From Candidatus Woesearchaeota archaeon (GTDB taxonomy: Archaea > Nanobdellota > Nanobdellia > Pacearchaeales > GW2011-AR1), in contig CAZHCL010000003.1 in NCBI GenBank assembly GCA_964530955.1, forward strand, positions 1,153-65,152: 64,000 bases of DNA. The letters are read 5' to 3'. The notes below the pieces were generated by a model that saw only the letters and a list, made by a program, of their open reading frames with translations, made no database searches and had not been told where the DNA came from. The number at the start of each line of letters is the position of its first letter. Positions within the stretch are counted from its first letter, which is position 1. This document shows, one piece after another, positions 14,371 through 46,537 of this stretch. A program made the translations under genes and the position numbers.

Positions 14371-14784
14371 ATGAAAATATACATCGCAGGCAAGCTTAGG
14401 GATGATTCAGAAAGAGAATTTCTTGAAAAGATAGACCTATTGTGCAAGTCCCTAGGTTTTAAGACATTTCTTCCTCATAGGGATGTAGGATTAGCAAATG
14501 GAATTGAAGATGTAGACAGAATATTCAAAGGAGATATTATTGATGGATTTAAAGATATAGACCTATTAATTGCTATTCTTGATGGCCTGCACGTTGGAGC
14601 AGGGACTTCCTGGGAGATGGGTTATGCATATGCAAAAAAAATACCCGTAATTGGAATAAAGACAGACGAGCCAGTTTCAGAAGCTCTAGAATACCTAAGT
14701 GCAATTCTTATTGGTTCGGCAGAAATTGTTTCATCACTAGAAGAATTAGAAATTACGCTGAAAAAGTTCAAATCAGGTAAATAA
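14371..14784 (+). CDS. Nucleoside 2-deoxyribosyltransferase-like protein
   Basis: 137 aa. MKIYIAGKL, FLPHRD and GTSWEMGYAYAKKIPVIG match the family pattern (D.GT.fE.GyA.a..KPv). Confidence 0.6.
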   Translation: MKIYIAGKLRDDSEREFLEKIDLLCKSLGFKTFLPHRDVGLANGIEDVDRIFKGDIIDGFKDIDLLIAILDGLHVGAGTSWEMGYAYAKKIPVIGIKTDEPVSEALEYLSAILIGSAEIVSSLEELEITLKKFKSGK

Positions 14785-15935: not shown

Positions 15936-16658
15936 ATGAGGAAAGCAATAATTCTATGTTCGGGGGGGTTGGATAGTGTAACAACAGCATATCATGTAAA
16001 AAACAGCCTTTCCTATAATTCTTTGATGATTTTATTTTTTAATTACAATCAAAAATCAATAAAAAGGGAAAGAGAGTTATCAAGAAAAACAGCAAGTAAG
16101 TTAAAAGCCAAATTCATGGAAATAAAACTGCCAGAACTTTCTAATATTTCAAATTCTCTCATCAATAAAAAGGGAAAAGTTGCAAAACTAAGTCTAAATG
16201 ACTTAAAAGATACAAAAAGTGAAAGCAGCAAGTGGTACGTTCCCCAAAGGAACCTTACTTTCATAACTTATGCTCTTGCTATGGCTGATTCTTTGTTTAT
16301 AAAAAATAAGGAAAAAAGCGACGTATTTTTAGGATTCAAGTGTGAAGGCTCTGATTCTTATCCAGATACAACAAAGGAATTTTTATCAGCAGTTAATGCT
16401 CTGTCAAAAGTTTCATCGGTTTCACAGGCAAAAATTATCGCTCCATTAATCGATAAAGATAAGGAAGACATAATTTTATTAGGAAAAAAGCTGGGAATCA
16501 ATTTTAAAGACACATTCAGTTGTTACACCGGAAAAAATACTCATTGTGGTCAGTGCTTAGCCTGCAGATTGAGGCAGGAAGGATTTTATTGGGCAAATAT
16601 TAGAGACCCAACAGAATATAAGAAAAAAATGAAAGATTTTAGAACATCTAAAGATTAG
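15936..16658 (+). CDS. queC: 7-cyano-7-deazaguanine synthase QueC
   Basis: ILCSGGLDSVTTAY (SGGxDS PP-loop) and the C-terminal Zn-cysteine cluster CYTGKNTHCGQCLACRLR. Confidence 0.85.
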   Translation: MRKAIILCSGGLDSVTTAYHVKNSLSYNSLMILFFNYNQKSIKRERELSRKTASKLKAKFMEIKLPELSNISNSLINKKGKVAKLSLNDLKDTKSESSKWYVPQRNLTFITYALAMADSLFIKNKEKSDVFLGFKCEGSDSYPDTTKEFLSAVNALSKVSSVSQAKIIAPLIDKDKEDIILLGKKLGINFKDTFSCYTGKNTHCGQCLACRLRQEGFYWANIRDPTEYKKKMKDFRTSKD

Positions 16659-17418
16659 CAAGCTCTTCTATCTTAACAAACTTATTCTTCTTTATATTAT
16701 TTCTAATCAAATAATCAAGATTTTCTATAAATCTATTATGTGAAAAGTTTTTTTCTACGCTGCTTTCCTTCATCTCTATAAAATCCCATGAATGCGCATA
16801 AAATATTGCTTCTTTAAATAATATTTTTAATGCATTTACATATGCGCTTTGCAAAAATTTAGGCAATACTCTTACAAATAATGAAACAAAAGGAACTAGC
16901 AAAGAAGTAGGCGGGATTTCAATTAAACCATTTGTTCTGTGTTTCCGGGGGTTTGAAAAGAAACCAGAGAAATTCCTCGTTATCCTTGTGGGAAAGAAAA
17001 CAAACTGCATAGCATTTAATGGAGTCTTTGATGAATCGTATTTGAATCCATATTTCCCTAAAAGAGAAAGGGCATCATCATCTATAGAATGTTGGGGTGC
17101 CCTGAATCCAGAAGGTTTCATTTTCAAAATTTTTTTAAAGCAAGAAATTGACTTTTTAATCTGCTCTTCTTTTTCATGAATAGAAAGGTCATCAAACCTT
17201 TCGTGCCTGTAAGCATGAAGTGAGATTTCATGGCCTTCTTTAACTAGTTTCTGAAATATTTTAGGGTATTTTTCAATGCAATCACATGTGACAAAGAAAG
17301 TCCCTTTTATTTTATATCTATCAAGTATTTTTACTATGGAAGGTATCCCCTCAGTTATTCCATAATATCCTTCAGTATGCAAGTCAGGTTCTATATCGAA
17401 TGAAAGAGATATTTTCAT
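16648..17418 (-). CDS. Polysaccharide deacetylase (CE4 family)
   Basis: LSFDIEPD (TFDD-like motif 1) and KGTFFVT...GHEISLHAYRHE (H-x4-H metal motif). ATGA-type overlap with cysC upstream. Confidence 0.75.
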   Translation of the reverse strand: MKISLSFDIEPDLHTEGYYGITEGIPSIVKILDRYKIKGTFFVTCDCIEKYPKIFQKLVKEGHEISLHAYRHERFDDLSIHEKEEQIKKSISCFKKILKMKPSGFRAPQHSIDDDALSLLGKYGFKYDSSKTPLNAMQFVFFPTRITRNFSGFFSNPRKHRTNGLIEIPPTSLLVPFVSLFVRVLPKFLQSAYVNALKILFKEAIFYAHSWDFIEMKESSVEKNFSHNRFIENLDYLIRNNIKKNKFVKIEELANL

Positions 17419-17933
17419 TTTACTTTTATAAATTTAAGTATCTGTTCTGCGCAGCTTTGAGGTTTTTTATTTACTACATCTAGTTTTATTTCGGGTTTAT
17501 CAGGAATTTCATAAGGATGGTGTAACCCAATAAAATTCTTTAACTCTCCAATTTCAGCTTTTTTATAAAGTCCTTTAACATCTCTCCTTTTACATTCTTC
17601 ATATGGGCAGTCTAAATAAACCTCAATAAAATCTTTCTTAAAAAATGTACGAGCATTTTCTCTGGATATTTTAAATGGGGAAATCACTGGAACAAGTATA
17701 AAATCAACTTTACCATAGTCATTTTTACATAGTTCAAGTATCAATCTATTATTCTCAAGAATATCTTCCCTCGAAAAACCCAAATGCTTATGTAATCTTT
17801 CTCTGACATCATCCCCGTCAAGAACTTCAAATGAAAGTCCATTATTCTTAAACCTTTCAACAAGAATAGTAGCAATAGTTGATTTTCCGCTTCCAGAAAG
17901 ACCTGTAAACCAGATTATTTTTGTTTTTTTCAT
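17415..17933 (-). CDS. cysC: Adenylylsulfate (APS) kinase
   Basis: 172 aa. IWFTGLSGSGKSTIA P-loop plus LDGDDVR, typical of CysC. Confidence 0.88.
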   Translation of the reverse strand: MKKTKIIWFTGLSGSGKSTIATILVERFKNNGLSFEVLDGDDVRERLHKHLGFSREDILENNRLILELCKNDYGKVDFILVPVISPFKISRENARTFFKKDFIEVYLDCPYEECKRRDVKGLYKKAEIGELKNFIGLHHPYEIPDKPEIKLDVVNKKPQSCAEQILKFIKVK

Positions 17934-20170
17934 TCAACAAACACTCTCTTTCCTTTTTTTATCTTATCCAAAATAATCTTGGATATCTCTTTTCTCATAA
18001 ACCATTCAGGAGGACTTTTGCCCTTCTTGAGCATTTCTCTAACTTGGGTTCCAGATATGTGGAATTTCTGCTCTTCAGGATGATTTTTTTCATCTTTTTC
18101 ATGTACATGCTCCTTTGTCTTAGCAGAATAAAATACTTTGTCAAATCTTACTGGAATTATTCCTAATTCCTCAGCAGAAAACTGGTCAAATACTTTATGT
18201 GAAGCATGAGGATGATAGTAATTTCCAACACCCGTATGGTCTCTTCCAACAATAAAGTGAGAACAGCCATAATTTTTCCTTACAAGAGCAGTGAAGAGAG
18301 CTTCTCTCGGACCCGCATATCTAGAATAGGAAGAAAAAGCAGAAAGAACAACCTTATTTTTAGGATATGAAATTTCCATAGCCTTTTCATAAGATTCCAT
18401 TATCGTATCTGCTTCAAAATCTCCAGATTTCTTTTTACCAATTATGGGGTGTATAAATATTCCGTCAGCTAAACTTTGCTCATATGCTTTCATTTGTATA
18501 AACTCATGAGATCTATGAGGGACATTTCGCGTATGGAAACCTACAACAACAGACCATCCTCTCTCTGCAAATATCTTTCTGGTTTGTCTTGGTGTTAGCT
18601 CATACATCTTGTAAGGAGAATCTTTTCTTTTTAGCATAGTAATCTTACCACCTACGACATATTCTCCCTTATCAACAAAGACCTTAACGCCCGGATGATT
18701 CATATCTCCAGTTCCAAATAATTTAACTGCAGACTGATTTCTATCTATCTTGAATACATCCTCAATCAGAATTTTACCATAAGTTTCTTTATCTTTAGCA
18801 AAAACTAAAGATACTTCTTGACCCTTTATCAGATTCCTTATTTCTTCCTGAGTAGCGCGAAGAAGTATTGGCAGAGGCCAGACAATTCCATTGCTCAAAC
18901 GCATTTTATCAAGAACAGAATTAAAATCTTTTTTATTCATAAAACCTTCAAGAGGGCTGTATGCTCCTATGGCTATTTGTTCCATATCCATCAAAGTTTC
19001 TTCGTCAACTATTAAAGATTTTTTCGGTATTTGATGAACTCCATTTGTGAATGCTCGGTTAACTAAAACTCCTCCGTGAGGTTTTATTAACAAATGGGGA
19101 ACAAAAGGAGATTTAGAATAGTCGCTTTCTTTTATTAATTCTAGAATATTTTCTCCTCTTTTCCATCCTAAGAATTCCAGCTGCTTTATAATAGTTCTAA
19201 GCATATTAACAGTTTCAACAGGATATTTCCCAACAGCAGTTTCCTTTGTAAGAGCTATGCCCGTCGCACCGTCAAGGATAGTGTTTATTATATCATTGAC
19301 TTCTGCTCTATTTGGCTTTAAAGATAAAGACATCTGCTCAAGAGTATTTGTCGCAATAAATATCTCCTTGCCCATCTTTCTACATTCACTAATAACATGC
19401 TTTTGTATAAGAGGTATTCTTTCTATAGGTATATCATGACTTAAGTCTCCTCTATCTATAAGTATTCCATTAGATTGCTTAGCAATTTCAACAAAATTTA
19501 TAAGACCTTTTCTTGACTCAACCTTTGAATATACATTAGCTTGAGGGTGCATTCTTTTGAATTCTTTGACTTCATCAGCCGACTTCATAAAAGATAACGT
19601 AAAGTGATTTATTCCATATTTTTTAGCTAATTTAACCGCAAAAATATCTTTTTTGCTAAAAGCAGGCAGACTGAATGTAGGACTATCTATGTATACTGCT
19701 TTCTTTCCGCCTACTCTTCCGCCGATTAGTACTCTGCATTCTATATATCCTCTTTTTTTTAGGTTAGAAGTACCAAATACTTTAAACAGCACAGAATTAA
19801 AATCAATTGAAACAAAATCTCCTTCTTTTAGGTAATCAACTGAATTAAGAGGATTAAGGCAAAAGTTACTCTTGTCGCACTTTATATTTTTGTTATATAG
19901 CTTTACTATAGCGCCTTCTGTAAAATCTATCTCTTCTTTGTGTGCATTTCCAGACCTTACCTGCGAACCTTCAGTATCTAAAATTATTGGAACTCCATAG
20001 GGCAATAAATCTTTTATTCTCTGCTCAATATCTTCCTGTTCAGTATGGGATAGATTAATTCTAAAGAAGCTGACACCTCTGTCCTTTAATCTAAGCAATG
20101 TTCCAGGATTGTTAGAGCCAGGCCCTATTGTAGATATTATCTTTACATCTTTCATCTTATTAATCAACAT
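17930..20170 (-). CDS. sat: Fusion protein: pyruvate-kinase-like barrel (N) :: sulfate adenylyltransferase / ATP sulfurylase (C)
   Basis: Single 746-aa ORF. Residues 1 to ~345 carry PK motifs IISTIGP, FRINLSH, DTEGSQVR, SKVESRKG, DRGDLSHDIP, ATNTLEQM and LTKETAVGKYP, with no PK C-terminal domain. Residues ~355-746 carry KPHGGVL, GFHTRNVPHRSHEF (RNP.H..H-type) and VGRDHTGVGNYY (GRDHAG) of ATP sulfurylase. Confidence 0.8.
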   Translation of the reverse strand: MLINKMKDVKIISTIGPGSNNPGTLLRLKDRGVSFFRINLSHTEQEDIEQRIKDLLPYGVPIILDTEGSQVRSGNAHKEEIDFTEGAIVKLYNKNIKCDKSNFCLNPLNSVDYLKEGDFVSIDFNSVLFKVFGTSNLKKRGYIECRVLIGGRVGGKKAVYIDSPTFSLPAFSKKDIFAVKLAKKYGINHFTLSFMKSADEVKEFKRMHPQANVYSKVESRKGLINFVEIAKQSNGILIDRGDLSHDIPIERIPLIQKHVISECRKMGKEIFIATNTLEQMSLSLKPNRAEVNDIINTILDGATGIALTKETAVGKYPVETVNMLRTIIKQLEFLGWKRGENILELIKESDYSKSPFVPHLLIKPHGGVLVNRAFTNGVHQIPKKSLIVDEETLMDMEQIAIGAYSPLEGFMNKKDFNSVLDKMRLSNGIVWPLPILLRATQEEIRNLIKGQEVSLVFAKDKETYGKILIEDVFKIDRNQSAVKLFGTGDMNHPGVKVFVDKGEYVVGGKITMLKRKDSPYKMYELTPRQTRKIFAERGWSVVVGFHTRNVPHRSHEFIQMKAYEQSLADGIFIHPIIGKKKSGDFEADTIMESYEKAMEISYPKNKVVLSAFSSYSRYAGPREALFTALVRKNYGCSHFIVGRDHTGVGNYYHPHASHKVFDQFSAEELGIIPVRFDKVFYSAKTKEHVHEKDEKNHPEEQKFHISGTQVREMLKKGKSPPEWFMRKEISKIILDKIKKGKRVFVE

Positions 20171-20229
20171 ACATCCCTTAAAAATATTGTGATGTAAAGA
20201 TTTAAAAGCAAAAAGAAATATTATTCTTA

Positions 20230-20919
20230 ATGAAGTTTAAACAGGTGAAAAAGTTCTTCAAGGGAGAGCATCTGACCCGCCCGTTGATAAAATATATTTA
20301 TCATCCAATAGCCATATTTTTATGTTGGATATATATTAATCTTAATATCTCTGCTAACATAGTTAATCTTCTTGGTTTATTTGCTAACCTTGTCGCAGCT
20401 TTTTTGATATTCAACGGAGGAAGAGGTTCTCTTGTACTAGCAGGATTTCTAATTTTATTTGCATATGTAAGCGATTTATGTGATGGAACAGTTGCGAGAG
20501 CATACGAAAAGAAAGATGCAATGGGTAAGTGGCTTGATGAGTCTGCTGGGCTTATAGGCATTTCATTAATCTTCTTTAGCCTTATGATGAGAACATTTAA
20601 TCAGACTGGAAATATAAGTATTATCTACCTAGGATTTTTGGCTATTTTCGGTTATTTAATGATGAACTTTGCAGCAATACTTTCAGAATTAATAAGAGGA
20701 AGGTTCAATCTGGAAAATAAAGCAGACAAATTCAGAAAGAAATTAGGAAAGAATATTCTTGGAATTAATCCTTCTTTGTTGTCATTCAGCTTTGATGTTC
20801 AATGGACAATTGTTGCATTAGGTATAATATTTAACATTCCTTATATCTTGTTTATTGTGTTTGGAATTCTTGCAAATCTACAATGGATAGGAAGATATTA
20901 CATATTTTGGGGCAAGTAA
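20230..20919 (+). CDS. CDP-alcohol phosphatidyltransferase family membrane protein
   Basis: DLCDGTVARAYEKKDAMGKWLDESAG fits D-x2-DG-x2-AR-x8-G-x3-D-x3-(D), but the last Asp is Gly. Polytopic. Confidence 0.7.
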   Translation: MKFKQVKKFFKGEHLTRPLIKYIYHPIAIFLCWIYINLNISANIVNLLGLFANLVAAFLIFNGGRGSLVLAGFLILFAYVSDLCDGTVARAYEKKDAMGKWLDESAGLIGISLIFFSLMMRTFNQTGNISIIYLGFLAIFGYLMMNFAAILSELIRGRFNLENKADKFRKKLGKNILGINPSLLSFSFDVQWTIVALGIIFNIPYILFIVFGILANLQWIGRYYIFWGK

Positions 20920-20937: not shown

Positions 20938-21192
20938 TTATGCCCATCCAAACCTTGTTTTAACAGCACAAACCCATTCATAGTTGTCCCCTTTCTTTGC
21001 AAGACTATAATGTTCTATCTTATCTTCACCAATAGGCGAACCTTCAAACCCCCACACTCTTGCTCTAATAAAAAATGGAATGCTGTATCTATAACCTGCC
21101 TGCCTTGCTTGTTCTCCTATCTCTTCATCTGTAATAGTTCTTCCCGCATTTAACCTAGCAATTTCAAGAAGCTTTTCTAATTTAACACTCAT
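20938..21192 (-). CDS. Hypothetical small protein
   Basis: 84-aa ORF with non-repetitive composition. No motif recognised. Confidence 0.35.
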   Translation of the reverse strand: MSVKLEKLLEIARLNAGRTITDEEIGEQARQAGYRYSIPFFIRARVWGFEGSPIGEDKIEHYSLAKKGDNYEWVCAVKTRFGWA

Positions 21193-27478: not shown

Positions 27479-28822
27479 ATGAAAAAGAAGGATTATCTCT
27501 TGATTCTACTCTTTGCTCTCTTACTTATATTATTTGCAGTTTTTTCTAAGATAGTTGGTTTTCATGATAGTTTTGAGTACATTAATGTTGCAAAGAATCT
27601 CGCGGGCATAAAAAATGTTCCCATATTTAGCACGCATCCTATAATTTATCCGCTAATAACCTCGCTTTTTCTTAAAATCTGGCCAAGTTTAACAATGATA
27701 AAAATAATAAACGTGCTTTGGGTATTCTTAATTGGTCTGGTTCTCTTTCTAGTATGTAAGGATAGAAAAGCATTTATCCTATTCGCTTTCTCACCTCTTG
27801 TTTGGTATACCAGCATTCAAACGACTCCTGTGCTTCCAGCAGCGTTGTTTTTCTTACTGGCTTATTTCTTTTACAATAACGAATATAAATACAGCAAAGT
27901 AATGTCAGGTTTCTGCCTAGGCTTGGGGGTTGCATTTTATACACCCATGCTTCTTGTTGCAGCCATTTTTGTTCTAGTTTATTTCTGGAACAGTAAGCTG
28001 TCAGATGTTATAAAATTTTCAATAGCAATTGTAATAGGAATAATCCCTGAGCTAGTGATAGACTATCTGGTTTTCGGTAATCCTTTTTATTCATTTATTA
28101 GGTATGCTGGAACAAACGCGCTAGTGCTACTTGGTATAAATCCTAACATAGGAAGTGTTCAAGTAACCCAGCATCTGGAAGTTTTTCTGATTTTCATTGT
28201 TATATCTCCCCTATTGTTCAGGTTGCATAGATTAGAGTTTAAAAAATATAAAAAAGACGTTATTTTTCTAGCAACAATATTTTTAATCTTTTTTATTAGA
28301 GCAGGAATGCTGAAATATTTTTTGATTATCAGTCCAGTAGTGATATTACTCTTGGCTAAAGTTTTAACAGACAAAGAGATTAAATGGCACTGTTTAATAG
28401 CTATACCAATAATTTTACTTCTAACCATGGGATATTTCACATATGCCTACGAGACAAATTTAAAAAAAGATCTATCCTCTATAACAGAAGAATATAACCC
28501 TCAGATTGTAATCGCAGGAGGTTATGAAGCGAGCGGTTTAGCGGCCTTTTCATGGAAAAATGCTCCAAGAATAGAGTGGTTTGAAGATTATAACGCCAGT
28601 CTAGAAAATAGGAGCGTTCTCAGACAATACACTTTTAAGTTTGAGCCTAGAAATATTCAGTTGAATAACATTTTGGAATTTTCTGCTAAATTCTTGCCTC
28701 CAAACGAAACATACGGAAAGAATACTCTATTGATTTCCGCAGACAATAATCTCACTCTGCAAGGTTTCAGTAAAAAGGAATGTTATAAAATCCTTTGCGT
28801 TTATACAAATAATGCTAATTAA
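27479..28822 (+). CDS. Polytopic membrane protein, possible GT-C glycosyltransferase or glycan polymerase
   Basis: 447 aa: many TM helices followed by a ~120-aa soluble C-terminus. The first loop has HDSFEYINVAKNL (acidic D..E like GT-C loop 1). The call is weak. Confidence 0.35.
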   Translation: MKKKDYLLILLFALLLILFAVFSKIVGFHDSFEYINVAKNLAGIKNVPIFSTHPIIYPLITSLFLKIWPSLTMIKIINVLWVFLIGLVLFLVCKDRKAFILFAFSPLVWYTSIQTTPVLPAALFFLLAYFFYNNEYKYSKVMSGFCLGLGVAFYTPMLLVAAIFVLVYFWNSKLSDVIKFSIAIVIGIIPELVIDYLVFGNPFYSFIRYAGTNALVLLGINPNIGSVQVTQHLEVFLIFIVISPLLFRLHRLEFKKYKKDVIFLATIFLIFFIRAGMLKYFLIISPVVILLLAKVLTDKEIKWHCLIAIPIILLLTMGYFTYAYETNLKKDLSSITEEYNPQIVIAGGYEASGLAAFSWKNAPRIEWFEDYNASLENRSVLRQYTFKFEPRNIQLNNILEFSAKFLPPNETYGKNTLLISADNNLTLQGFSKKECYKILCVYTNNAN

Positions 28823-37536: not shown

Positions 37537-38430
37537 TTAGAATAAAGTACCCTCAAGACCATTCGTAGGTTTAGTACTATGCGAGGTTTTAGTTTCTTTC
37601 CTCTCAGGTTTTTTTTGTTCTTGTCTTGCAGAGAGTTGGTGTATTTTATCAATGTCTAGTCCACTAACCCTTAAATATTCCAATGTAGCAGCAAGAGTAG
37701 CAACATCTAAAACATTATGGTTAATAACTTTGGCCATGGGAGTTATAACATCTGCTTCAAATTCATCTTCCTTTCTTCCATAAACAAATTCTCGGTATAT
37801 GGTCGGTATATCAGCTCCCCTAACTTCATCCTCCCTATGTACCCCAAATAATATTTTTTCCAAAGTCTGAAGTTTGTTATCTGGTAATTCGGTTCCTTTC
37901 TTTTTAAGAAAATCACCAACAAGAGGATAAAGGTCACAGTGCCTATCGCCAAGCATTTTTTTAAGATCAGGCATTTCTCCTTTTCTGAAAAGAGCATACA
38001 TTTCAAGCCTTTTTGAAATTCTATCAAAATCAAAGGCAGTTCCATTATAAGTGAAGACTAAATCTGCCCTTCTTAGCAAATTAAAACATCTTCTCATAAT
38101 AGTTTCTTCTCCGTAATAGTCAAAGGCAAAAAGAGTTTCAGTTTCGAAGTCTCCATTAATACTCCCTAATGTAATAGTGTTAATCTGAGAGTCTGAAAAC
38201 AACCCGCAACTTTCTATGTCAATTAAATAAATTTTTCTATCTTCTAAACTCTTCGGAAGGCTTAGATAATAGGTTCTTATCATCTGAGGAATTTTTCCAT
38301 GGTCTATTTCAATTAACCCTTTAACAACTTCTAGATAATGATACCCTCTTCGGTCATTAATTATTCTACCGTGAGTTTTTTTAGCTAGTTCTCTCCATTT
38401 ATTTTCAACTTGTCTTTCATATTGTTTCAT
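37537..38430 (-). CDS. RNase H-fold DEDDh 3'-5' exonuclease, YprB/PolB-exo-like
   Basis: 297 aa. It has ExoI LIDIESCG (DxE), ExoII VFTYNGTAFDFDRI (N-x2-FD) and ExoIII HNVLDVATL (H-x3-D). The start overlaps the upstream stop (TGATG). Confidence 0.65.
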   Translation of the reverse strand: MKQYERQVENKWRELAKKTHGRIINDRRGYHYLEVVKGLIEIDHGKIPQMIRTYYLSLPKSLEDRKIYLIDIESCGLFSDSQINTITLGSINGDFETETLFAFDYYGEETIMRRCFNLLRRADLVFTYNGTAFDFDRISKRLEMYALFRKGEMPDLKKMLGDRHCDLYPLVGDFLKKKGTELPDNKLQTLEKILFGVHREDEVRGADIPTIYREFVYGRKEDEFEADVITPMAKVINHNVLDVATLAATLEYLRVSGLDIDKIHQLSARQEQKKPERKETKTSHSTKPTNGLEGTLF

Positions 38431-39836
38431 CAGGGCTCACCTTTTTTTATTAAATATTCAAGCATATCAATAACCCATTTTCTCTGCTCCTGAAGACCTT
38501 GTTTCGACAACATTTTTAAAGTTTTTTCCAAGCCCATTTTTGCATGGGTTTCTGTTAACGCTCTAAAGTTAATATTTGGATAAGCACCCTCAGAAACATG
38601 GTAATCTTGTTCCACTTTTTCAATTAAACTAAGAAAAGCTTGATGAAATTGATTAAACTCTATCACTCTTATTCCATGGTTTTCTATTCCGAGAAGTGCT
38701 TTTTCATATTTTCTTGGCTCTTGATGCAAAAATAAAATTGCTCCGTCCATAGGTTTCTCATCTTTCTTTCCATCTCTCCAGACGCTTTTTCCTCCATATT
38801 TATCAATAATTTCTTTTAATCCTCCTGGAAATATAGGATTATTATCTGCTTTAACCTCAATTGCAGTATTGCCTATTCTTCCATCAGCCCAACCCATTTT
38901 TCTAGAAGAGTATCTAAATCTTTTTCTACTATGCTCAAAATGAATTTCATTAAAATCAGGTAAACCCAGCCTTAAAGGATCGTCATATCCTCCTCTAGAT
39001 GTCCAGACTATATATGCTTGAACATATTTTTCGGCTAATTTTCCGCACTGGCCTGCCCCCCTAATGCCTGCTCTAATCTCAGAATTAGAGATATCTCCAA
39101 GATAGGCTGCTGTCTGAGTAAATGTGTTACATTTAGAAAGCTCAGAATGTTCTTTTTCTCTTAGAAATAATCCTTTGTGATCAAGAATATATTTTATTTG
39201 AAGACTTAATTTTCTGTGCCTTGGATCGGGAGAATGCCATAAATATTTTTCAGATATAGGTATCCCATTGCCCAAGGCTATTTGAATTTCAGTTTTAATT
39301 TTTTCAAAATCTATTGCTTCATCATTAGTCCTTCTGACAAGCAACCTATAAAGTCCCGGCCTTCTATCTTCCATAAATCTTGCCATTCGAGAACCTGATT
39401 CTCCACCTCTGTAACTGCTTTTTATCCACTTGTAACTATTAGGATGTTCTTTCTTAAAATCAGAGATGCTTGGTAATGGGTGCGAAACAGGATCATGGAC
39501 ATATCTCTCAACTTCATGAGCTTTCCAGAAGTGTCTAAAGGCGTGATCCGCTCTCTCTAAAAAATTATAATAATGAGCTTCTTCGTTTGTGGCAATTCCT
39601 AAAAGTTCAGCACCCGCTCTTATCGATTTTCTTGGACGGTCAGTATTCAGTAACCCGTATTTTCTTACATCTTCATAAACCTTCCCAGATAATCTTCCTC
39701 TCCTTCTAATCTCAAGTTCGGCTTCTCTCCTTGTTTCTTCTAGAGGTCTCAAATGAATTTTATATTTAAGAGTGCCTCCGCTGATTGTATAGCCTCCGTC
39801 AGGCAATTGCTCTACATGATAATTATTTTTTACCAT
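38430..39836 (-). CDS. Orphan 468-aa protein with a C-terminal PD-(D/E)xK-like nuclease motif
   Basis: No family recognised for residues 1-260; that part is Arg/His/Trp-rich. GKLAEKYVQAYIVW (E269) ... GWADGRIGNTAIEVKADN (D318, E327, K329; nt ~38850-38885) fits the E...D...ExK arrangement of restriction-endonuclease-like folds. Confidence 0.4.
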   Translation of the reverse strand: MVKNNYHVEQLPDGGYTISGGTLKYKIHLRPLEETRREAELEIRRRGRLSGKVYEDVRKYGLLNTDRPRKSIRAGAELLGIATNEEAHYYNFLERADHAFRHFWKAHEVERYVHDPVSHPLPSISDFKKEHPNSYKWIKSSYRGGESGSRMARFMEDRRPGLYRLLVRRTNDEAIDFEKIKTEIQIALGNGIPISEKYLWHSPDPRHRKLSLQIKYILDHKGLFLREKEHSELSKCNTFTQTAAYLGDISNSEIRAGIRGAGQCGKLAEKYVQAYIVWTSRGGYDDPLRLGLPDFNEIHFEHSRKRFRYSSRKMGWADGRIGNTAIEVKADNNPIFPGGLKEIIDKYGGKSVWRDGKKDEKPMDGAILFLHQEPRKYEKALLGIENHGIRVIEFNQFHQAFLSLIEKVEQDYHVSEGAYPNINFRALTETHAKMGLEKTLKMLSKQGLQEQRKWVIDMLEYLIKKGEP

Positions 39837-43211: not shown

Positions 43212-43232
43212 TACATTCATTCATTGAATTAC

Positions 43233-45275
43233 ATGAAAAAGAGGGTGTTAAAGTCGCTTTTAGCAGTATTGCTTGTAATTTCTCTAGTTAGCTTTTCCTC
43301 CGCAGAAATATTGCTTTCTCCTTCCTCATCAGGATACAGCATAGGAGATGATTTTTCTCTTAGCGCAACAGTAATTCCTAATTCGGACACAAATGGTTTT
43401 TTCACGGCAGACCTAGTCTGTGACAACAGCAAGATAGAAATATACAGAACTCCTTTAAACTTAAATGCTTTGCAGGAAACTAATCTTACAGTCAATGCAA
43501 CTCTGGATAAGTCTCTAGTAAATAATATTGTTGGAAATTGCTACATAGACGCAAATTTCGGTTCTGATGAAGTAAAAAGTAGTTCTTTTGAAATATCAAA
43601 CAAGATTGACCTAAACATATCCCTTTCAGATTCAACAGTAGATCCTGGCAATCAGTTCACTCTTTCTGGAACAGCCACAAAAAGAGGCAACAATGTTAAT
43701 GGATACATAAACATAACCATATCAGGTATCGGCTACTACTCCTTATCTGAAGTTTCAAATGGAACTTTCTCTCAAGAAATATCAATTCCTGAAAATTTAT
43801 CTTCAGGGATATATGCAGTAAGCTCAGATGTTTATGAAAAAGATTCTCAAGGAAATATAGCAAATGAAGGAACTGATTCTTCAATGTTTATTGTCCGGCA
43901 GATTGCAAAAAAGGCAGATGTTGCGATAAATGCAGTTAACCTAACTCCTCCAGCAAACCTGTCATATATTCCTCTTCTCTATGATCAGGCAGGAAAAGAA
44001 ATGCAATCCTCTCTGATAGTTTCTGTTTATGACCCAAGTGGAAGTTTATATGTTCAAAGAACAGATTTTGAAGGTCAGTCAAATTTACTAAGCGTTCCAA
44101 ATAATGCCTCTCCAGGTAACTGGGTGATAGAATCATCCTACGCTGGTTTGAGTTCAAAAGTTCCTTTTTTTGTTTCAGAAGTTCAAAAAGCTTCTTTCAC
44201 ACTTGACAATCAGACTTTAATTGTAAAGAATGTAGGGAACGTGCCCTATTCAAAGACAGTCGAGATAACTATTGGTTCTGATAAAGAAGTAAAATCTTTT
44301 AATTTAAATGTGGGCGAAGAGCAGAGATTCAAGCTAACTGCCCCCGATGGGAATTATGACATCTCTATAAAAGAAGACGAAACTTCGCTTCCAGTGGGCT
44401 CTGCATATTTAACTGGAAATGCAGTGGCAGTAAAAAGCTTAAACAGTCTATCTAGCGGATTTAGTTCAACCCTATGGATCTGGATTATTGTTATTATAGT
44501 TCTTTTGGCTGTTGCACTTTATTACTACAGAAAAGTCAGAAGTAAATCATACTTTGGAAAGACTCCAAGTTTCTCATCTCCAATAAAGAGAAAATTAATT
44601 CCTATAACACAATCTTCTTTTCCTTCAAAAGAGGTTGACTCCCAAGCCAGAAAAACAAGAATAGAAACCTATGACCCTGAATCCTTGGCCGCTTCTGCAA
44701 GTTCTGCTTCATCTTCCCTTTCCTCAAACGATAACAAGGAAGAAGTAGTTGTCATAGCAGTAAAAATAAAGAATGAACAGAAATTAAAGGACTCTGAAAG
44801 TTCAGCCTACAATACAATTGAACATATTCTACAAAAAGCAAGACTTGCAAAGGCGAAAGTTTATGATCAGGGAGCATTTAAGGTAATTATTCTATCATCA
44901 AGGATAACTCAGAAGACTGAGCTTGAAAATTATGCTTCTGCAGTCAAGTTGGCAAATCAAATTGATGAAACATTGAGAGAATTCAATAAGAAATATGCAA
45001 TAAAGATAGATTATGGAATAGGCGCAAATGTCGGGCAAATGTTCGTTGAATTCGTTGATAACAAAGTTAAATTCACTTCATTCGGGAATACAGTTATTCT
45101 AGCAAAGAATGCAGCCGAAAAAGCAAATAACGAACTTCTTATTTCTCAAGGTTTACACAGAAAAGTTTACAATATTGTCAAAGGCGATGTAACTCCCTAT
45201 GGTCTTTACAAAGTTAATTCAATTTTGGATAGAACCCAACATTCTCAGTTTATCCAAAGGTTCATGAAGAAGTAA
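43233..45275 (+). CDS. Type I membrane surface protein: signal peptide, Ig/CARDB-like ectodomain, one TM, cytoplasmic degenerate cyclase-homology-like domain
   Basis: The signal-like N-terminus is MKKRVLKSLLAVLLVISLVSFSSA. The ectodomain has beta-rich repeats (NVGNVPYSKTVEITIG is CARDB-like). The TM helix is LWIWIIVIIVLLAVALYYY, followed by a Ser-rich linker. The C-terminal DYGIGANVGQMFVEF...FTSFGNTVILAKNAAEKA resembles the RIGIHTG...GDTVN.A.R block of class III cyclases. ATG at 43233, with TATA box TTTAAATA 21 nt upstream. Confidence 0.55.
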   Translation: MKKRVLKSLLAVLLVISLVSFSSAEILLSPSSSGYSIGDDFSLSATVIPNSDTNGFFTADLVCDNSKIEIYRTPLNLNALQETNLTVNATLDKSLVNNIVGNCYIDANFGSDEVKSSSFEISNKIDLNISLSDSTVDPGNQFTLSGTATKRGNNVNGYINITISGIGYYSLSEVSNGTFSQEISIPENLSSGIYAVSSDVYEKDSQGNIANEGTDSSMFIVRQIAKKADVAINAVNLTPPANLSYIPLLYDQAGKEMQSSLIVSVYDPSGSLYVQRTDFEGQSNLLSVPNNASPGNWVIESSYAGLSSKVPFFVSEVQKASFTLDNQTLIVKNVGNVPYSKTVEITIGSDKEVKSFNLNVGEEQRFKLTAPDGNYDISIKEDETSLPVGSAYLTGNAVAVKSLNSLSSGFSSTLWIWIIVIIVLLAVALYYYRKVRSKSYFGKTPSFSSPIKRKLIPITQSSFPSKEVDSQARKTRIETYDPESLAASASSASSSLSSNDNKEEVVVIAVKIKNEQKLKDSESSAYNTIEHILQKARLAKAKVYDQGAFKVIILSSRITQKTELENYASAVKLANQIDETLREFNKKYAIKIDYGIGANVGQMFVEFVDNKVKFTSFGNTVILAKNAAEKANNELLISQGLHRKVYNIVKGDVTPYGLYKVNSILDRTQHSQFIQRFMKK

Positions 45276-45850: not shown

Positions 45851-46537
45851 ATGTCATTTAAACATTTTATCAAGGAATTGAATGGTAGCAGGGTCGAAGG
45901 AGAATTAATAATGACTTTCTTCTATTCACTGTTAACTTCATTAGTATTTCTAGTAATAGTCTATTACTTAAAATTAAATCAAATAGAAGGCTTCGTTTCA
46001 AAGTATGGTCTTTTCCTTTTCCTTTCGGCTCTTTCATATGCTCTAATATCTCCAGCAATAAGACAGGTAAGAGCTTACAAAGAGCTTCCTTGCATGTCTG
46101 GAATGATGATTGGAATGACTTTAGGAATGATTTCAGGATTCTTGCCTGGATTTTATTTAGGCGCAACCAATGGAATGTTTGTAGGAAGTGTATTTGGAAT
46201 GATTATAGGAATAGTAATGGGTGCTTGGACAGGTAAATGTTGCGGAATAATGGGTATAATGGAAGGAGTAATGGCTGGATTCATGGGTGGATTGATGGGG
46301 GCAATGAGTTCAGTAATGCTTCTAAACGACCATTTGAAATACATGGCAATCATAGTATTAGTAGTATCTGCTGTAATTACTTTAGGGCTCAATTACATGA
46401 TCTTTAAGGAAACTACGGAATCAGAAAGGCAAAAAAGAGAAGATCATTTATTCACCATAATGATTACTCTAATTTTAATTGCAATAACAACCTGGTTTAT
46501 GGTCTTCGGACCAAGAGGAGGAATATTTTTAGGATAA
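45851..46537 (+). CDS. Met/Gly-rich polytopic membrane protein (possible metal handling)
   Basis: 228 aa. It has repeated GM-rich helices (MSGMMIGMTLGMISGF, GMFVGSVFGMIIGIVMGAWTGKCCGIMGIMEGVMAGFMGGLMGAMSS). It lies immediately upstream of the cupredoxin/CopZ/CopA genes. Confidence 0.45.
   Translation: MSFKHFIKELNGSRVEGELIMTFFYSLLTSLVFLVIVYYLKLNQIEGFVSKYGLFLFLSALSYALISPAIRQVRAYKELPCMSGMMIGMTLGMISGFLPGFYLGATNGMFVGSVFGMIIGIVMGAWTGKCCGIMGIMEGVMAGFMGGLMGAMSSVMLLNDHLKYMAIIVLVVSAVITLGLNYMIFKETTESERQKREDHLFTIMITLILIAITTWFMVFGPRGGIFLG

What the first reader, a model, noticed from the sequence alone, without database searches (positions are those of the whole stretch)
17930..20170. Pyruvate-kinase-like barrel fused to ATP sulfurylase
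One uninterrupted 746-aa ORF joins a PK A/B-domain module to a complete ATP sulfurylase. The PK catalytic positions look retained: R/N/S-H in FRINLSH, D-T in DTEGSQVR, K-x-E in SKVES, RGD in DRGDL, T in ATN, and E in KETA. The allosteric C-domain is missing. The sulfurylase part has RNxPHRSHE and GRDHTG. I do not know this architecture. A PEP-driven ATP-regenerating or ADP-removing module coupled to sulfate activation (Sat uses ATP; the adjacent CysC makes ADP) would be a neat solution to the unfavourable APS equilibrium. That role is speculation.
Basis: partly seen in the sequence, partly recalled or inferred. Interest (0 to 1): 0.65.

Follow-up and report, generated by a model that had tools for sequence, protein, structure and literature searches.

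The report
Pyruvate-kinase barrel fused to ATP sulfurylase
An archaeal gene joins a pyruvate-kinase catalytic module to the enzyme that activates sulfate, and this little-noticed design recurs in hundreds of microbial species, always among genes for making the sulfate donor PAPS, so it probably recharges ATP on the spot for sulfating cell-surface sugars.

Summary
Window 17930-20170 (-) is one uninterrupted 746-aa ORF: pyruvate-kinase (PK) A+B barrel (aa 7-321, no C-domain), PUA_2 (362-515), ATP-sulfurylase (523-734). cysC follows, and then a polysaccharide deacetylase, each joined by a 4-nt ATGA overlap. The locus lies inside a large archaeal (DPANN-like) glycan cluster.

It is not an assembly artefact. 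More than 120 protein clusters and at least 590 hits in a one-genome-per-species collection carry this PK subfamily. Of the 80 best loci, 78 have PK-Sat in one ORF and 13 of these also have CysC fused.

All PK substrate and metal ligands are invariant. A subfamily signature is invariant too (E114, Q117, D292, S297, N328). The signature clade also includes PK-CysC fusions without Sat, and stand-alone barrels beside sulfotransferase, APS-kinase or sulfatase genes. Sulfotransferases are the commonest neighbours; no PAPS reductase or sulfite reductase is among the commonest.

Best explanation (about 0.6): a PAPS-synthesis module with a built-in, unregulated PEP:ADP phosphotransferase. It regenerates ATP and removes the ADP that traps APS kinase in a dead-end complex. 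The activity is inferred, not shown.

I found no paper describing this. Databases call it either "sulfate adenylyltransferase" or "pyruvate kinase". I rate it a new variant of a known kind, interest about 0.62.

The parts
17930..20170 (-). Whole PK-PUA-Sat fusion ORF (746 aa; probable true start is M6 at nt 20155)
   Evidence: ORF; three Pfam domains; >120 collinear homologue clusters; AF2 pLDDT 93.7, pTM 0.90; residues 1-5 below 50
19208..20152 (-). Pyruvate-kinase A+B barrel module (aa 7-321), no C-domain. Ligand residues: R37, N39, S41, H42, D65, T66, R72, K157, K216, E218, G241, D242, T274, E310
   Evidence: PF00224, E 4.5e-61, full profile; end-to-end alignment with 3t05, 2e28 and PKM; positions invariant in 121 sequences; Foldseek matches to PK A+B
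19667..19954 (-). PK B-domain (lid), about aa 73-168, including K157 (equivalent to K206, an ATP/ADP phosphate ligand)
   Evidence: alignment; all-beta segment E81-E162 modelled at high pLDDT; K157 in 120 of 121
19088..19207 (-). Linker, aa 322-361 (end of the last PK helix, short helix 342-349, extended segment).
   Evidence: 10-residue block mean pLDDT 79-96 across the linker; helix 342-349; 99% coverage in homologues, no break
18626..19087 (-). PUA_2 (N-terminal domain of ATP sulfurylase), aa 362-515
   Evidence: PF14306, E 1.9e-43
17969..18604 (-). ATP-sulfurylase catalytic domain, aa 523-734. Carries HTRNVPHRSHE (H546...H555) and GRDHTG (642-647)
   Evidence: PF01747, E 1.3e-78; NF003166 444.9 > 387; TIGR00339 365.9 > 322.95; 8a8d, E 3.8e-97; TM 0.93 to 8a8d; motif residues invariant
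17415..17933 (-). cysC (APS kinase, 172 aa). Its ATG overlaps the fusion's stop codon (ATGA at 17930-17933)
   Evidence: PF01583, E 3.4e-48; TIGR00455 180.5 > 138.7; sequence of the overlap
16648..17418 (-). Polysaccharide deacetylase-family gene (256 aa), third gene of the apparent operon. Its ATG overlaps the cysC stop (ATGA at 17415-17418)
   Evidence: PF01522, E 3.2e-24; homologues in 6 related loci, 2 of them within 50 bp of the PK gene
20171..20229 (.). 59-bp A+T-rich divergent intergenic region between the fusion and the CDP-OH_P_transf gene; presumed promoter region (not tested)
   Evidence: sequence; gene coordinates
20230..20919 (+). Divergently transcribed CDP-alcohol phosphatidyltransferase-like membrane protein (229 aa). 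A recurrent neighbour of the PK gene; role unknown

Best explanation
The gene encodes the first enzyme of a PAPS-synthesis operon (PK-Sat, CysC, deacetylase). The operon serves sulfation of a cell-surface glycan in a DPANN-type archaeon.

The C-terminal two thirds are a working ATP sulfurylase: ATP + sulfate -> APS + PPi. The N-terminal third is a catalytically competent pyruvate-kinase A/B module that has lost the allosteric C-domain and is therefore unregulated. It uses PEP to convert the ADP released by APS kinase back into ATP next to the two ATP-consuming enzymes.

The net reaction becomes sulfate + ATP + PEP -> PAPS + PPi + pyruvate. That adds the roughly -31 kJ/mol of the PK reaction to the pathway. 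It keeps local ATP high for the unfavourable Sat step. It also removes the ADP that otherwise locks APS kinase in the E-ADP-APS dead-end complex.

Shown here: the architecture, residue conservation, the subfamily clade, fusion partners and gene neighbourhoods. Inferred: PK activity, its substrates, the direction of benefit, and any physical channelling.
For: (1) PK fold and ligands. There is a full-length PF00224 match, end-to-end alignment with solved PKs, a confident model and Foldseek matches to PK A+B. R72, N74, S76, H77, D112, T113, R119, K206, K269, E271, G294, D295, T327 and E363 equivalents are invariant, or nearly so, in 121 homologues of 48-65% identity and in about 140 more distant representatives.

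(2) Rosetta-stone evidence. An exhaustive search with the PK half alone against 1.84 billion representatives gave, in the top 150: 84 PK-Sat, 3 PK-Sat-CysC, 2 PK-CysC without Sat (Pfam-confirmed) and 47 PK-only proteins of 380 aa or less, mostly stand-alone barrels plus some fragments. Canonical ~470-aa PKs appear only from about rank 130.

(3) Genomes. There are at least 590 hits in the species-level genome set. Of the best 80 loci, 78 are fused, 13 of them with CysC; 24 more have cysC directly downstream.

(4) Neighbourhood. Among 147 flanking genes the top Pfam families are Sulfotransfer_3 (19) and Sulfotransfer_1 (18). Glycosyltransferases, sugar-nucleotide enzymes and Inositol_P (CysQ-like, 5) follow. 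No PAPS reductase or sulfite reductase is in the top 25. A sulfotransferase-like ORF lies within 8 kb in 50 of 80 loci, and 33 of 61 such ORFs lie within 140 bp of the PK gene.

(5) Stand-alone members sit beside a Sulfotransfer_1 gene (L004), a CTP_transf_like-APS_kinase gene (L007) and a sulfatase-family gene (L008).

(6) Biochemical precedent. With human PAPSS1, omitting the PK/PEP module lets ADP accumulate and PAPS is 'practically missing'; the authors attribute this to the E-ADP-APS dead-end complex (PMC9885120).

(7) The departures at positions 114 and 117 do not argue against catalysis. K114Q rabbit PK has near wild-type kinetics. Crenarchaeal PKs with uncharged residues at 117 (Ser, Val) are active and K+-independent, and Gln also occurs at 117 in that branch (PMC8835810, PMC4374775).

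(8) ATGA overlaps join PK-Sat, cysC and the deacetylase.
Against: - No enzymatic data exist for any member.
- The C-domain is absent, and the protein scores below NCBIfam's pyruvate-kinase cut-offs (TIGR01064: 252 vs 306).
- Six positions that are conserved in glycolytic PKs are replaced by other, equally invariant residues: K114E, E117Q, A292D, G297S, Q328N and S361-G362 -> T-K or A-A. This is the pattern expected of a changed property (cation, nucleotide or substrate preference), not of a plain PK.
- In canonical PKs the alpha6' helix RGDLGME and a trans Arg across the A-A interface are needed for activity (PMC3467265). Here the helix reads RGDLS(H/R/S)(D/E/Q), and the oligomeric state is unknown.
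- About half of the fused loci show no cysC nearby.
- The window has no recognisable sulfotransferase, no PPase and no PEP-forming enzyme.
- I could not test whether these genomes also have a normal PK.
Confidence: 0.6

Rival explanations
1. The PK-like barrel is catalytic but neofunctionalised. It keeps the phosphoryl-transfer machinery but uses a different donor or acceptor: a nucleotide of the sulfation cycle other than ADP, another enol or hydroxy-acid, or even a sulfuryl rather than a phosphoryl group. In that case it would be a new enzyme activity rather than an ATP regenerator.
For: There is an invariant subfamily signature at six positions near the active site or the A/B hinge: E114, Q117, D292, S297, N328 and T361-K362 or A-A. 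The signature-bearing sequences form one clade of 121 of the 133 sequences in the tree, separate from the canonical PKs. The fused Sat half has co-diverged: HTRN instead of QTRN in 153 of 163, and GRDHTG. The protein scores below the PK equivalog cut-offs. From memory, unverified here: PK can catalyse sulfuryl transfer from sulfoenolpyruvate (Peliska & O'Leary 1989).
Against: Every residue that contacts PEP, Mg2+, the monovalent cation and the nucleotide phosphates in canonical PK is retained. Positions 114 and 117 vary among active PKs. The PK-CysC fusions are most simply explained by ADP/ATP exchange. No alternative substrate is suggested by a conserved neighbour.
Confidence: 0.2
2. The PK barrel is a non-catalytic regulatory or scaffolding domain. 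It would sense PEP, ATP or ADP (energy charge) or drive oligomerisation of Sat. This would resemble the APS-kinase-like allosteric C-terminal domain of fungal ATP sulfurylase.
For: There is precedent for degenerate kinase-like domains on Sat (Penicillium ATPS 1i2d is among the hits; its allosteric role is from my knowledge). AF2 gives a rigid inter-domain arrangement (pTM 0.90). The regulatory C-domain is lost, so the barrel might itself have become the sensor.
Against: The residues that are strictly invariant include those needed only for chemistry, not for binding: K269, T327 and E363 equivalents, both Mg2+ ligands and the mobile B-domain lid with K206. Degenerate regulatory domains normally lose such residues. 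Stand-alone barrels and PK-CysC fusions exist without Sat.
Confidence: 0.12
3. It is simply the organism's housekeeping glycolytic pyruvate kinase that happens to be fused to Sat in reduced genomes. There would be no specific functional coupling.
For: DPANN and CPR genomes are small and domain fusions are common. DPANN metabolic surveys report PYK and Sat in most MAGs (PMC8091004). I could not check for a second PK in these genomes; the window has none.
Against: The same subfamily occurs in large-genome bacteria: Thauera, [Flexibacter], Chloroflexota, Planctomycetes, Actinomycetes. It forms its own clade with a distinct signature. It lacks the regulatory domain. Even when unfused it is embedded in sulfation or glycan clusters, not glycolytic contexts.
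Confidence: 0.06
4. Artefact: two separate genes joined by an assembly or sequencing error at the junction.
For: None beyond the fact that raw reads for this window were not available. One related MAG (L053) shows a split, overlapping pair consistent with a frameshift.
Against: The collinear architecture appears in more than 120 independent protein clusters and in 78 of 80 species genomes. The linker is conserved and confidently modelled.
Confidence: 0.01

Closest known systems
Bifunctional PAPS synthases (Sat-CysC fusions: Aquifex aeolicus 2gks; metazoan PAPSS1/2; NCBIfam NF004040)
   Same: Sulfate-activating enzymes are joined in one polypeptide so that an unfavourable first step is pulled by a coupled second activity. 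13 of the 80 best relatives of this gene also carry CysC at the C-terminus.
   Different: Here the extra partner is an N-terminal pyruvate-kinase barrel. In the window CysC is a separate, overlapping gene. NF004040 scores 272 against a cut-off of 669.
Canonical pyruvate kinase (EC 2.7.1.40; PykF/PykA, PKM; PF00224 + PF02887)
   Same: A-domain barrel with inserted B-domain lid. All PEP, Mg2+, K+-site and nucleotide-phosphate ligands are retained.
   Different: No C-domain, so no allosteric site and no C-C tetramer interface. Invariant E114/Q117/D292/S297/N328 signature. Below equivalog cut-offs. Sulfation rather than glycolytic gene context.
Homo-oligomeric archaeal/bacterial ATP sulfurylase (Methanothermococcus thermolithotrophicus 8a8d; Thermus thermophilus 1v47)
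   Same: The Sat half is a close structural and sequence relative: E 3.8e-97, TM 0.93, rmsd 2.2 A. The HxxH and GRDHxG motifs are kept.
   Different: About 360 extra N-terminal residues (PK plus linker). The sulfate-site motif reads HTRN instead of QTRN.
Engineered PAPS-synthesis cascades with PK/PEP ATP regeneration (e.g. PMC9885120)
   Same: The same set of activities (Sat, APS kinase, PK) and the same rationale: remove ADP, avoid the E-ADP-APS dead-end complex, and regenerate ATP.
   Different: That is a man-made mixture of separate enzymes, with a pyrophosphatase added. Here the combination is a natural fusion or operon, and no PPase was seen in the locus.
Other energy- or product-coupled sulfate activation systems: CysDN (GTPase-coupled) and Sat-pyrophosphatase fusions of some eukaryotic algae (from my knowledge, not checked here)
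   Same: An additional energy-releasing reaction is attached to ATP sulfurylase to overcome its roughly 1e-8 equilibrium constant.
   Different: The coupling partner and chemistry differ. CysN uses GTP hydrolysis through conformational coupling. The PPase fusions remove PPi. Here the partner would be PEP-driven ADP-to-ATP conversion acting by mass action.

Membership tests
Pyruvate kinase (PF00224 barrel; EC 2.7.1.40) | (beta/alpha)8 A-domain with inserted beta-barrel B-domain | tested here: met
   PF00224 at aa 7-321, profile 2-328 of 328, E 4.5e-61. AF2 pLDDT above 90 across the region. Foldseek matches to PK chains, probability 1.00.
Pyruvate kinase (PF00224 barrel; EC 2.7.1.40) | Substrate and metal ligands R72, N74, S76, D112, T113, R119, K206, K269, E271, G294, D295, T327, E363 (rabbit numbering) | tested here: met
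   All are present in the query. They are invariant or nearly so in 121 close and about 140 distant homologues.
Pyruvate kinase (PF00224 barrel; EC 2.7.1.40) | C-terminal alpha/beta domain (PF02887) carrying the allosteric site | tested here: not met
   No PK_C hit. The PK alignment ends at about aa 332 and is followed by the Sat PUA_2 domain.
Pyruvate kinase (PF00224 barrel; EC 2.7.1.40) | One of the two known hinge-loop signatures: T113/K114/E117/T120 (K+-dependent) or L113/Q114/K117/(L,I,V)120 (K+-independent) | tested here: not met
   The query and family have T(S)113/E114/Q117/(S,T)120. The signatures are defined in PMC8835810 and PMC4374775.
Pyruvate kinase (PF00224 barrel; EC 2.7.1.40) | Score above the NCBIfam equivalog cut-off | tested here: not met
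   TIGR01064 scores 252.3 against a cut-off of 306.4. All other PK models are also below their cut-offs.
Pyruvate kinase (PF00224 barrel; EC 2.7.1.40) | PEP + ADP -> pyruvate + ATP activity | not testable with these tools
   Needs a recombinant enzyme assay.
ATP sulfurylase, Sat type (PF14306 + PF01747; TIGR00339 / NF003166) | PUA-like N-domain plus catalytic domain, scoring above the curated cut-offs | tested here: met
   NF003166 scores 444.9 against 387. TIGR00339 scores 365.9 against 322.95. Pfam E-values are 1.9e-43 and 1.3e-78. TM 0.93 to 8a8d.
ATP sulfurylase, Sat type (PF14306 + PF01747; TIGR00339 / NF003166) | Catalytic motifs (Q)xRN..H..H and GRDHxG | tested here: met
   R548, N549, H552, H555, G642, R643, D644, H645 and G647 are invariant in 77 sequences. 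However, the first residue is H546 rather than the canonical Q: HTRN in 153 of 163 fused Sat halves, against QTRN in 8a8d, 1v47 and the PK-less Sat-CysC of L065.
Bifunctional PAPS synthase (Sat + APS kinase in one chain) | APS kinase domain in the same polypeptide | tested here: not met
   In the window cysC is a separate ORF (17415-17933) overlapping by 4 nt. The domain is fused in 13 of 80 related loci.
Sulfation-associated C-domain-less PK subfamily (defined here) | PK A+B only. Signature Q117, D292, N328, usually with E114 and S297. Fused to or next to Sat, CysC or sulfotransferase genes | tested here: met
   The query signature string is RNSHDTEQRKKEDRGDSTNTKE. It lies inside the 121-member signature clade. 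It is fused to Sat with cysC downstream.

The most novel reading that the evidence does not exclude
The signature-bearing PK barrel may not be an ordinary ATP regenerator. It could be a dedicated enzyme of the sulfation cycle with altered specificity or tight physical coupling. One version: a PEP-driven 'PAPS synthase' in which ADP is handed directly from APS kinase to the PK site. Another: a barrel whose acceptor or donor has shifted to a sulfonucleotide-related substrate. Either would make PEP a previously unrecognised energy currency of sulfate activation in at least 590 species. It would also mean that 'pyruvate kinase' calls in many DPANN and CPR metabolic reconstructions are not glycolytic.
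Probability: 0.2. Interest if true: 0.85.

Novelty: new variant of a known kind. Interest (0 to 1): 0.62.

Why it matters
1. It would add a third natural strategy for overcoming the very unfavourable ATP-sulfurylase equilibrium, besides GTP coupling (CysDN) and product removal (APS kinase, PPase). That strategy is in-cis ATP regeneration and ADP removal paid for by PEP, the same trick biotechnologists add to PAPS-synthesis cascades.

2. It defines a large, phylogenetically broad PK subfamily: DPANN archaea, CPR bacteria, Omnitrophota, Chloroflexota, Planctomycetes, Proteobacteria and others. This subfamily is tied to sulfation rather than glycolysis. Automated 'pyruvate kinase' annotations of these proteins can falsely complete glycolysis in reconstructions of reduced genomes.

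3. It flags PAPS-dependent glycan sulfation as a common trait of DPANN and CPR cell surfaces.

4. A natural single-chain PK-Sat-CysC enzyme could be useful for enzymatic PAPS production.

5. It is directly testable. Cultured carriers exist (Thauera sinica, [Flexibacter] sp. ATCC 35103), and the assay is the standard PK/LDH-coupled one.

Tried and rejected
- **Assembly artefact:** rejected on recurrence of the architecture.
- **Sulfotransferase in the window:** tblastn with the L001 sulfotransferase and a home-made sulfotransferase HMM built from Pfam-confirmed seeds found nothing at E <= 10. Pfam scans of 46 window ORFs also found none, so the acceptor-side enzyme of this particular locus is unidentified.
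- **Second PK in the window:** none.
- **Prior descriptions in the literature:** five searches returned only papers that use PK as a coupling enzyme or list PYK and Sat separately.
- **Published contacts of positions 328, 361 and 362**: I learned only that Ser362 lies at the gamma-phosphate/glycerol site and that the alpha6' helix and a trans Arg matter. This was not enough to interpret the substitutions.
- **CDP-OH_P_transf-like neighbour as a substitute sulfotransferase:** considered and dropped. Where it recurs, it usually co-occurs with a normal sulfotransferase.
- **Assimilatory sulfate reduction as the pathway served:** considered and rejected. CysH and sulfite reductase do not appear among the 25 commonest neighbour families, while sulfotransferases top the list.
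- **Fused fraction:** the 78 of 80 figure is biased, because loci were ranked by similarity to a fused query. The unbiased top-150 representative list has 47 PK-only proteins of 380 aa or less, about a third, some of them fragments.
- **Methods:** my gene calls in related loci are crude greedy ORF picks, and the NJ tree is a simple distance tree.


Full report
**1. The observation**

One search lists one ORF at 17930..20170 on the minus strand. It is 746 aa, has an ATG start and is uninterrupted, exactly as reported. Pfam splits it into three parts:
- PK barrel PF00224, aa 7-321 (E 4.5e-61, covering profile positions 2-328 of 328)
- PUA_2, aa 362-515 (E 1.9e-43)
- ATP-sulfurylase, aa 523-734 (E 1.3e-78)

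No PK C-terminal domain is found. NCBIfam places the C-terminal part above the curated cut-offs for sulfate adenylyltransferase (NF003166: 444.9 vs 387; TIGR00339: 365.9 vs 322.95). All pyruvate-kinase models score below theirs (TIGR01064: 252 vs 306), as expected for a protein lacking a third of a PK.

The closest solved relatives are Methanothermococcus thermolithotrophicus ATP sulfurylase 8a8d for the Sat half (E 3.8e-97) and S. aureus, G. stearothermophilus and PKM pyruvate kinases for the N-terminal half (E about 1e-45). Base composition is uniform across the junction.

**2. Gene arrangement and host**

The gene immediately downstream (17415..17933, -) is APS kinase (PF01583, E 3.4e-48; TIGR00455 above its cut-off). 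The next gene (16648..17418, -) is a polysaccharide-deacetylase family protein. Both junctions are 4-nt ATGA overlaps, so the three genes look like a translationally coupled operon. Upstream, a 59-bp A+T-rich spacer separates the fusion from a divergent CDP-alcohol-phosphatidyltransferase-like membrane protein.

The surrounding 30 kb is a glycan-biosynthesis cluster. It contains:
- an STT3/AglB-like oligosaccharyltransferase
- a GT4-family phosphosugar transferase
- two flippases
- GT1, GT2 and GT9 glycosyltransferases
- epimerases/dehydratases and a UDP-sugar dehydrogenase
- a DegT aminotransferase
- several methyltransferases
- a PMT_2 protein

The other window genes mark the host as an archaeon. 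They include ThrRS with the archaeal editing domain, a thermosome subunit, RtcB, GatD and a DnaG-type primase. The best homologues of the fusion come from Pacearchaeota, Woesearchaeota and Nanoarchaeota MAGs.

**3. The fusion is real and recurrent**

A word-indexed search of 5.8 billion proteins returned 1230 hits. All 120 of the best clusters have PK, PUA_2 and ATP-sulfurylase together, at 48-65% identity; coverage is 99-100% in all but two (87% and 96%). About 15 also carry a C-terminal APS kinase. Source names for them are either 'sulfate adenylyltransferase' or 'pyruvate kinase'.

AlphaFold with a 77-sequence alignment gives mean pLDDT 93.7 and pTM 0.90 for the whole 746-residue chain. That means a defined arrangement between the two halves. 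Only residues 1-5 fall below 50, so M6 at nt 20155 is the likely true start. The linker (aa 322-361) is partly helical, with 10-residue block means of 79-96. Foldseek against the PDB matches the C-terminal half to 8a8d (TM 0.93, rmsd 2.2 A) and the N-terminal half to PK A+B domains. No solved chain covers both halves.

**4. PK catalytic residues**

- R37 (R72), N39 (N74), S41 (S76), H42 (H77)
- D65 (D112), T66 (T113), R72 (R119)
- K157 (K206)
- K216 (K269), E218 (E271)
- G241 (G294), D242 (D295)
- T274 (T327)
- E310 (E363)

In a MAFFT alignment of the query with 120 homologues, every one of these is invariant or nearly so (120-121 of 121; T274 is T in 113 and S in 8).

- K114 -> E67
- E117 -> Q70
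- A292 -> D239
- G297 -> S244
- Q328 -> N275
- S361-G362 -> T308-K309

The literature puts positions 113-120 on the hinge loop between the A and B domains, where they set monovalent-cation dependence. E117 goes with K+-dependence and K117 with independence. K114Q rabbit PK is kinetically near wild type. Crenarchaeal PKs with uncharged residues at 117 (Ser, Val) are active and K+-independent, and Gln also occurs at that position in their branch (PMC8835810, PMC4374775). So E114 and Q117 do not argue against catalysis. They do define a third, uncharacterised hinge signature.

The alpha6' helix (RGDLGME in canonical PKs) and a trans-acting Arg across the A-A interface are required for activity in known PKs (PMC3467265). 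Here the helix reads RGDLS(H/R/S)(D/E/Q). In the sequences I inspected by eye, the equivalent of the trans Arg (KPNRAE) is mostly R or K.

**5. The PK half belongs to a sulfation-linked subfamily**

This is the key new result. I ran an exhaustive phmmer search with aa 1-345 alone against 1.84 billion representatives (50% clusters). It gave 12,507 hits. The top 150 break down as follows:

| Architecture | Count |
|---|---|
| PK-Sat | 84 |
| PK-Sat-CysC | 3 |
| PK-APS kinase without Sat (P0169, P0173; Pfam-confirmed) | 2 |
| PK only, 380 aa or less (mostly stand-alone barrels of about 325-376 aa, some fragments) | 47 |
| Other | 14 |

The 'other' class includes one PK-CBS protein and one Phosphodiest-PK-PUA_2-Sat protein of 1151 aa. 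Ordinary ~470-aa PKs appear only from about rank 130.

The signature E114/Q117/D292/S297/N328 is shared by essentially all of these, whereas the canonical PKs in the list show K or Q114/E117/A292/G297/Q328. In a neighbour-joining tree the signature-bearing sequences form one clade of 121 of the 133 sequences. Outside it lie the canonical PKs and a small D292/E117/H328 group that also includes Sat fusions.

**6. Taxonomic spread**

The best 80 loci come from:
- DPANN archaea (Pace-, Woese-, Nanohalo- and Micrarchaeota)
- CPR bacteria (Saccharibacteria, Parcubacteria and others)
- Omnitrophota, Planctomycetes, Chloroflexota, Actinomycetes
- Alpha- and Gammaproteobacteria
- NC10, Elusimicrobia, Bdellovibrionota

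Two are cultured strains: Thauera sinica CGMCC 1.15731 and [Flexibacter] sp. ATCC 35103.

Of these 80 loci, 65 have PK-Sat, 13 have PK-Sat-CysC and 2 have a stand-alone barrel. Twenty-four of the 65 have a separate cysC directly downstream. The fused fraction is inflated, because loci were ranked by similarity to a fused query.

**7. Gene neighbourhoods**

Context look-ups for unfused and PK-CysC members gave:

| Member | Type | Neighbourhood |
|---|---|---|
| P0121 | stand-alone barrel | beside a Sulfotransfer_1 gene |
| P0126 | stand-alone barrel | beside a CTP_transf_like-APS_kinase gene |
| P0170 | stand-alone barrel | overlapping a sulfatase-family gene |
| P0173 | PK-CysC | in a polysaccharide cluster with a sulfotransferase |

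A Pfam tally of 147 genes flanking the PK gene, sampled from the 80 loci, is headed by Sulfotransfer_3 (19) and Sulfotransfer_1 (18). GT1/GT4 glycosyltransferases, epimerases/dehydratases, methyltransferases, GT2, DegT aminotransferases and Inositol_P (CysQ-like PAP phosphatase, 5) follow. PAPS reductase and sulfite reductase are not among the top 25.

I built a sulfotransferase HMM from Pfam-confirmed seeds; its consensus shows the 5'-PSB and 3'-PB motifs. It finds such an ORF within 8 kb in 50 of the 80 loci, and 33 of 61 such ORFs lie within 140 bp of the PK gene. One locus even has a CysC-sulfotransferase fusion right after PK-Sat (L046).

The pathway served is therefore PAPS-dependent sulfation, mostly of glycans, and not assimilatory sulfate reduction.

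**8. Mechanism**

The best-supported reading is a PAPS-synthesis module with built-in ATP regeneration:
- Sat makes APS + PPi from ATP and sulfate.
- CysC makes PAPS + ADP.
- The PK barrel converts ADP + PEP to ATP + pyruvate.
- Net: sulfate + ATP + PEP -> PAPS + PPi + pyruvate.

The standard free energy of the PK reaction is about -31 kJ/mol (textbook value). This both biases the whole pathway and keeps the local ATP/ADP ratio high. It also addresses a specific, experimentally documented weakness of APS kinase. With human PAPSS1, leaving out a PK/PEP module lets ADP accumulate and PAPS is 'practically missing'. The authors attribute this to the dead-end enzyme-ADP-APS complex (PMC9885120).

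The PK-CysC fusions that lack Sat fit this logic particularly well, because CysC is the enzyme that produces ADP. Loss of the allosteric C-domain fits a module that should run whenever its partners do.

Shown: architecture, conservation, clade, fusion partners, neighbourhoods. Inferred: PK activity, substrate identity, and any channelling. I put about 0.6 on this mechanism.

**9. Rivals**

- (a) The invariant signature, the separate clade and the co-diverged Sat half leave about 0.2 for a catalytic barrel with altered specificity. On the Sat side, the motif is HTRN instead of QTRN in 153 of 163.
- (b) A non-catalytic sensor or scaffold, like the APS-kinase-like domain of fungal Sat, gets about 0.12. 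It is disfavoured because residues needed only for chemistry are invariant, and because barrels occur without Sat.
- (c) A housekeeping glycolytic PK that merely got fused gets about 0.06. It is disfavoured by occurrence in large-genome bacteria and by the sulfation context of unfused members.
- (d) Artefact: about 0.01.

**10. Caveats for this locus**

- No sulfotransferase, pyrophosphatase or PEP-forming enzyme was recognised in the 64-kb window.
- Whether the genome has a canonical PK is unknown.
- Raw reads were not available.

**11. Comparison with what is known, and novelty**

The Sat half passes the membership tests for Sat-type ATP sulfurylase. The N-terminal half has the fold and ligands of PK but fails three family features: the C-domain, the hinge signature and the equivalog score. 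I therefore describe it as a PK-derived subfamily rather than 'a pyruvate kinase'.

The closest known systems are:
- Sat-CysC PAPS synthases
- GTP-coupled CysDN and Sat-PPase fusions (both from my knowledge)
- man-made PAPS cascades with PK/PEP

Five literature searches found no description of a PK-Sat protein. DPANN metabolic surveys score PYK and Sat as separate functions (PMC8091004), which this fusion could confound.

The architecture is thus present in databases but, within the searchable literature, functionally undescribed. I rate it a new variant of a known kind: a multi-enzyme sulfate-activation complex with a new, widespread partner domain. Interest is about 0.62.

Noticed in passing
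window 17415-17418 and 17930-17933: ATGA stop/start overlaps link PK-Sat to cysC and cysC to a polysaccharide-deacetylase gene. This suggests a translationally coupled three-gene operon. A deacetylase next to PAPS synthesis recalls N-deacetylase/N-sulfotransferase logic, but that is speculation.
   Followed up: partly
window 1-64000 (whole window): No recognisable sulfotransferase is present, although 50 of 80 related loci have one within 8 kb. The acceptor-side enzyme of this locus is unidentified. ORFs without any Pfam match that could be candidates: 27479-28822 (447 aa) and 20938-21192 (84 aa).
   Followed up: partly
window 20230-20919 (+): A CDP-alcohol phosphatidyltransferase-like membrane protein is transcribed divergently from the fusion. 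Its role in a sulfation locus is unexplained.
   Followed up: partly
window 18505-18537 (aa 546-556 of the fusion): The Sat sulfate-site motif reads HTRNVPHRSHE. H replaces the canonical Q of QTRN in 153 of 163 PK-fused Sat halves. PK-less Sats (8a8d, 1v47, the L065 Sat-CysC) keep Q. The Sat half has therefore co-diverged with the PK half.
   Followed up: partly
L071:3-10790 ([Flexibacter] sp. ATCC 35103, NZ_MTQF01000013.1): In a cultured strain, a PK-Sat-CysC triple fusion (925 aa) follows a 290-aa protein with no Pfam match and an NRPS of at least 2382 aa (C-A-T-C-A-T-TE). This could be a PAPS supply for a sulfated or sulfonated non-ribosomal peptide. From memory, this strain is a monobactam producer; I did not verify that.
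   Followed up: partly
P0256 (1151 aa): A four-part architecture: type I phosphodiesterase/nucleotide pyrophosphatase (PF01663) + PK + PUA_2 + ATP-sulfurylase. Its PK half belongs to a sister group (D292, E117, H328) outside the main signature clade.
   Followed up: no
L007:3325-4206 (-): Next to a stand-alone PK barrel lies a 293-aa protein combining CTP_transf_like (a nucleotidyltransferase fold) with APS kinase. It could be a minimal or alternative sulfate-adenylylating enzyme fused to CysC.
   Followed up: no
L046:10254-11645 (+): An APS kinase-Sulfotransfer_1 fusion (463 aa) lies directly downstream of PK-Sat in a MAG labelled Methanosarcinales. With it, the whole path from sulfate to sulfated product is encoded in two adjacent genes.
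   Followed up: partly
L065:175-1965 (+) and L065:7962-10262 (+); also L069, L073: Some genomes (NC10, Chloroflexota) carry a conventional Sat-CysC gene (QTRN type in L065) within 8 kb of PK-Sat. This hints at two parallel sulfate-activation systems, perhaps assimilation versus sulfation. The L069 and L073 copies lack the RN..H..H motif.
   Followed up: no
L053:8001-10182: In a Microthrixaceae MAG the fusion appears as two overlapping ORFs: PK plus partial Sat (542 aa) and Sat (326 aa). This is probably a frameshift or sequencing error, and it is the only split case among the 80 loci.
   Followed up: no
window 38430-39836, 43224-45275, 45851-46537, 57540-58916: Four sizeable ORFs (468, 683, 228 and 458 aa) have no Pfam family at all. 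This is typical DPANN dark matter and unrelated to the finding.
   Followed up: no
window 15936-16658 (+) and 14371-14784 (+): A QueC-like PP-loop ATPase (7-cyano-7-deazaguanine synthase family) and a nucleoside 2-deoxyribosyltransferase-like gene sit in the middle of the glycan cluster. A QueC homologue also occurs in 2 related loci (L030, L033). Their role there is unclear.
   Followed up: no
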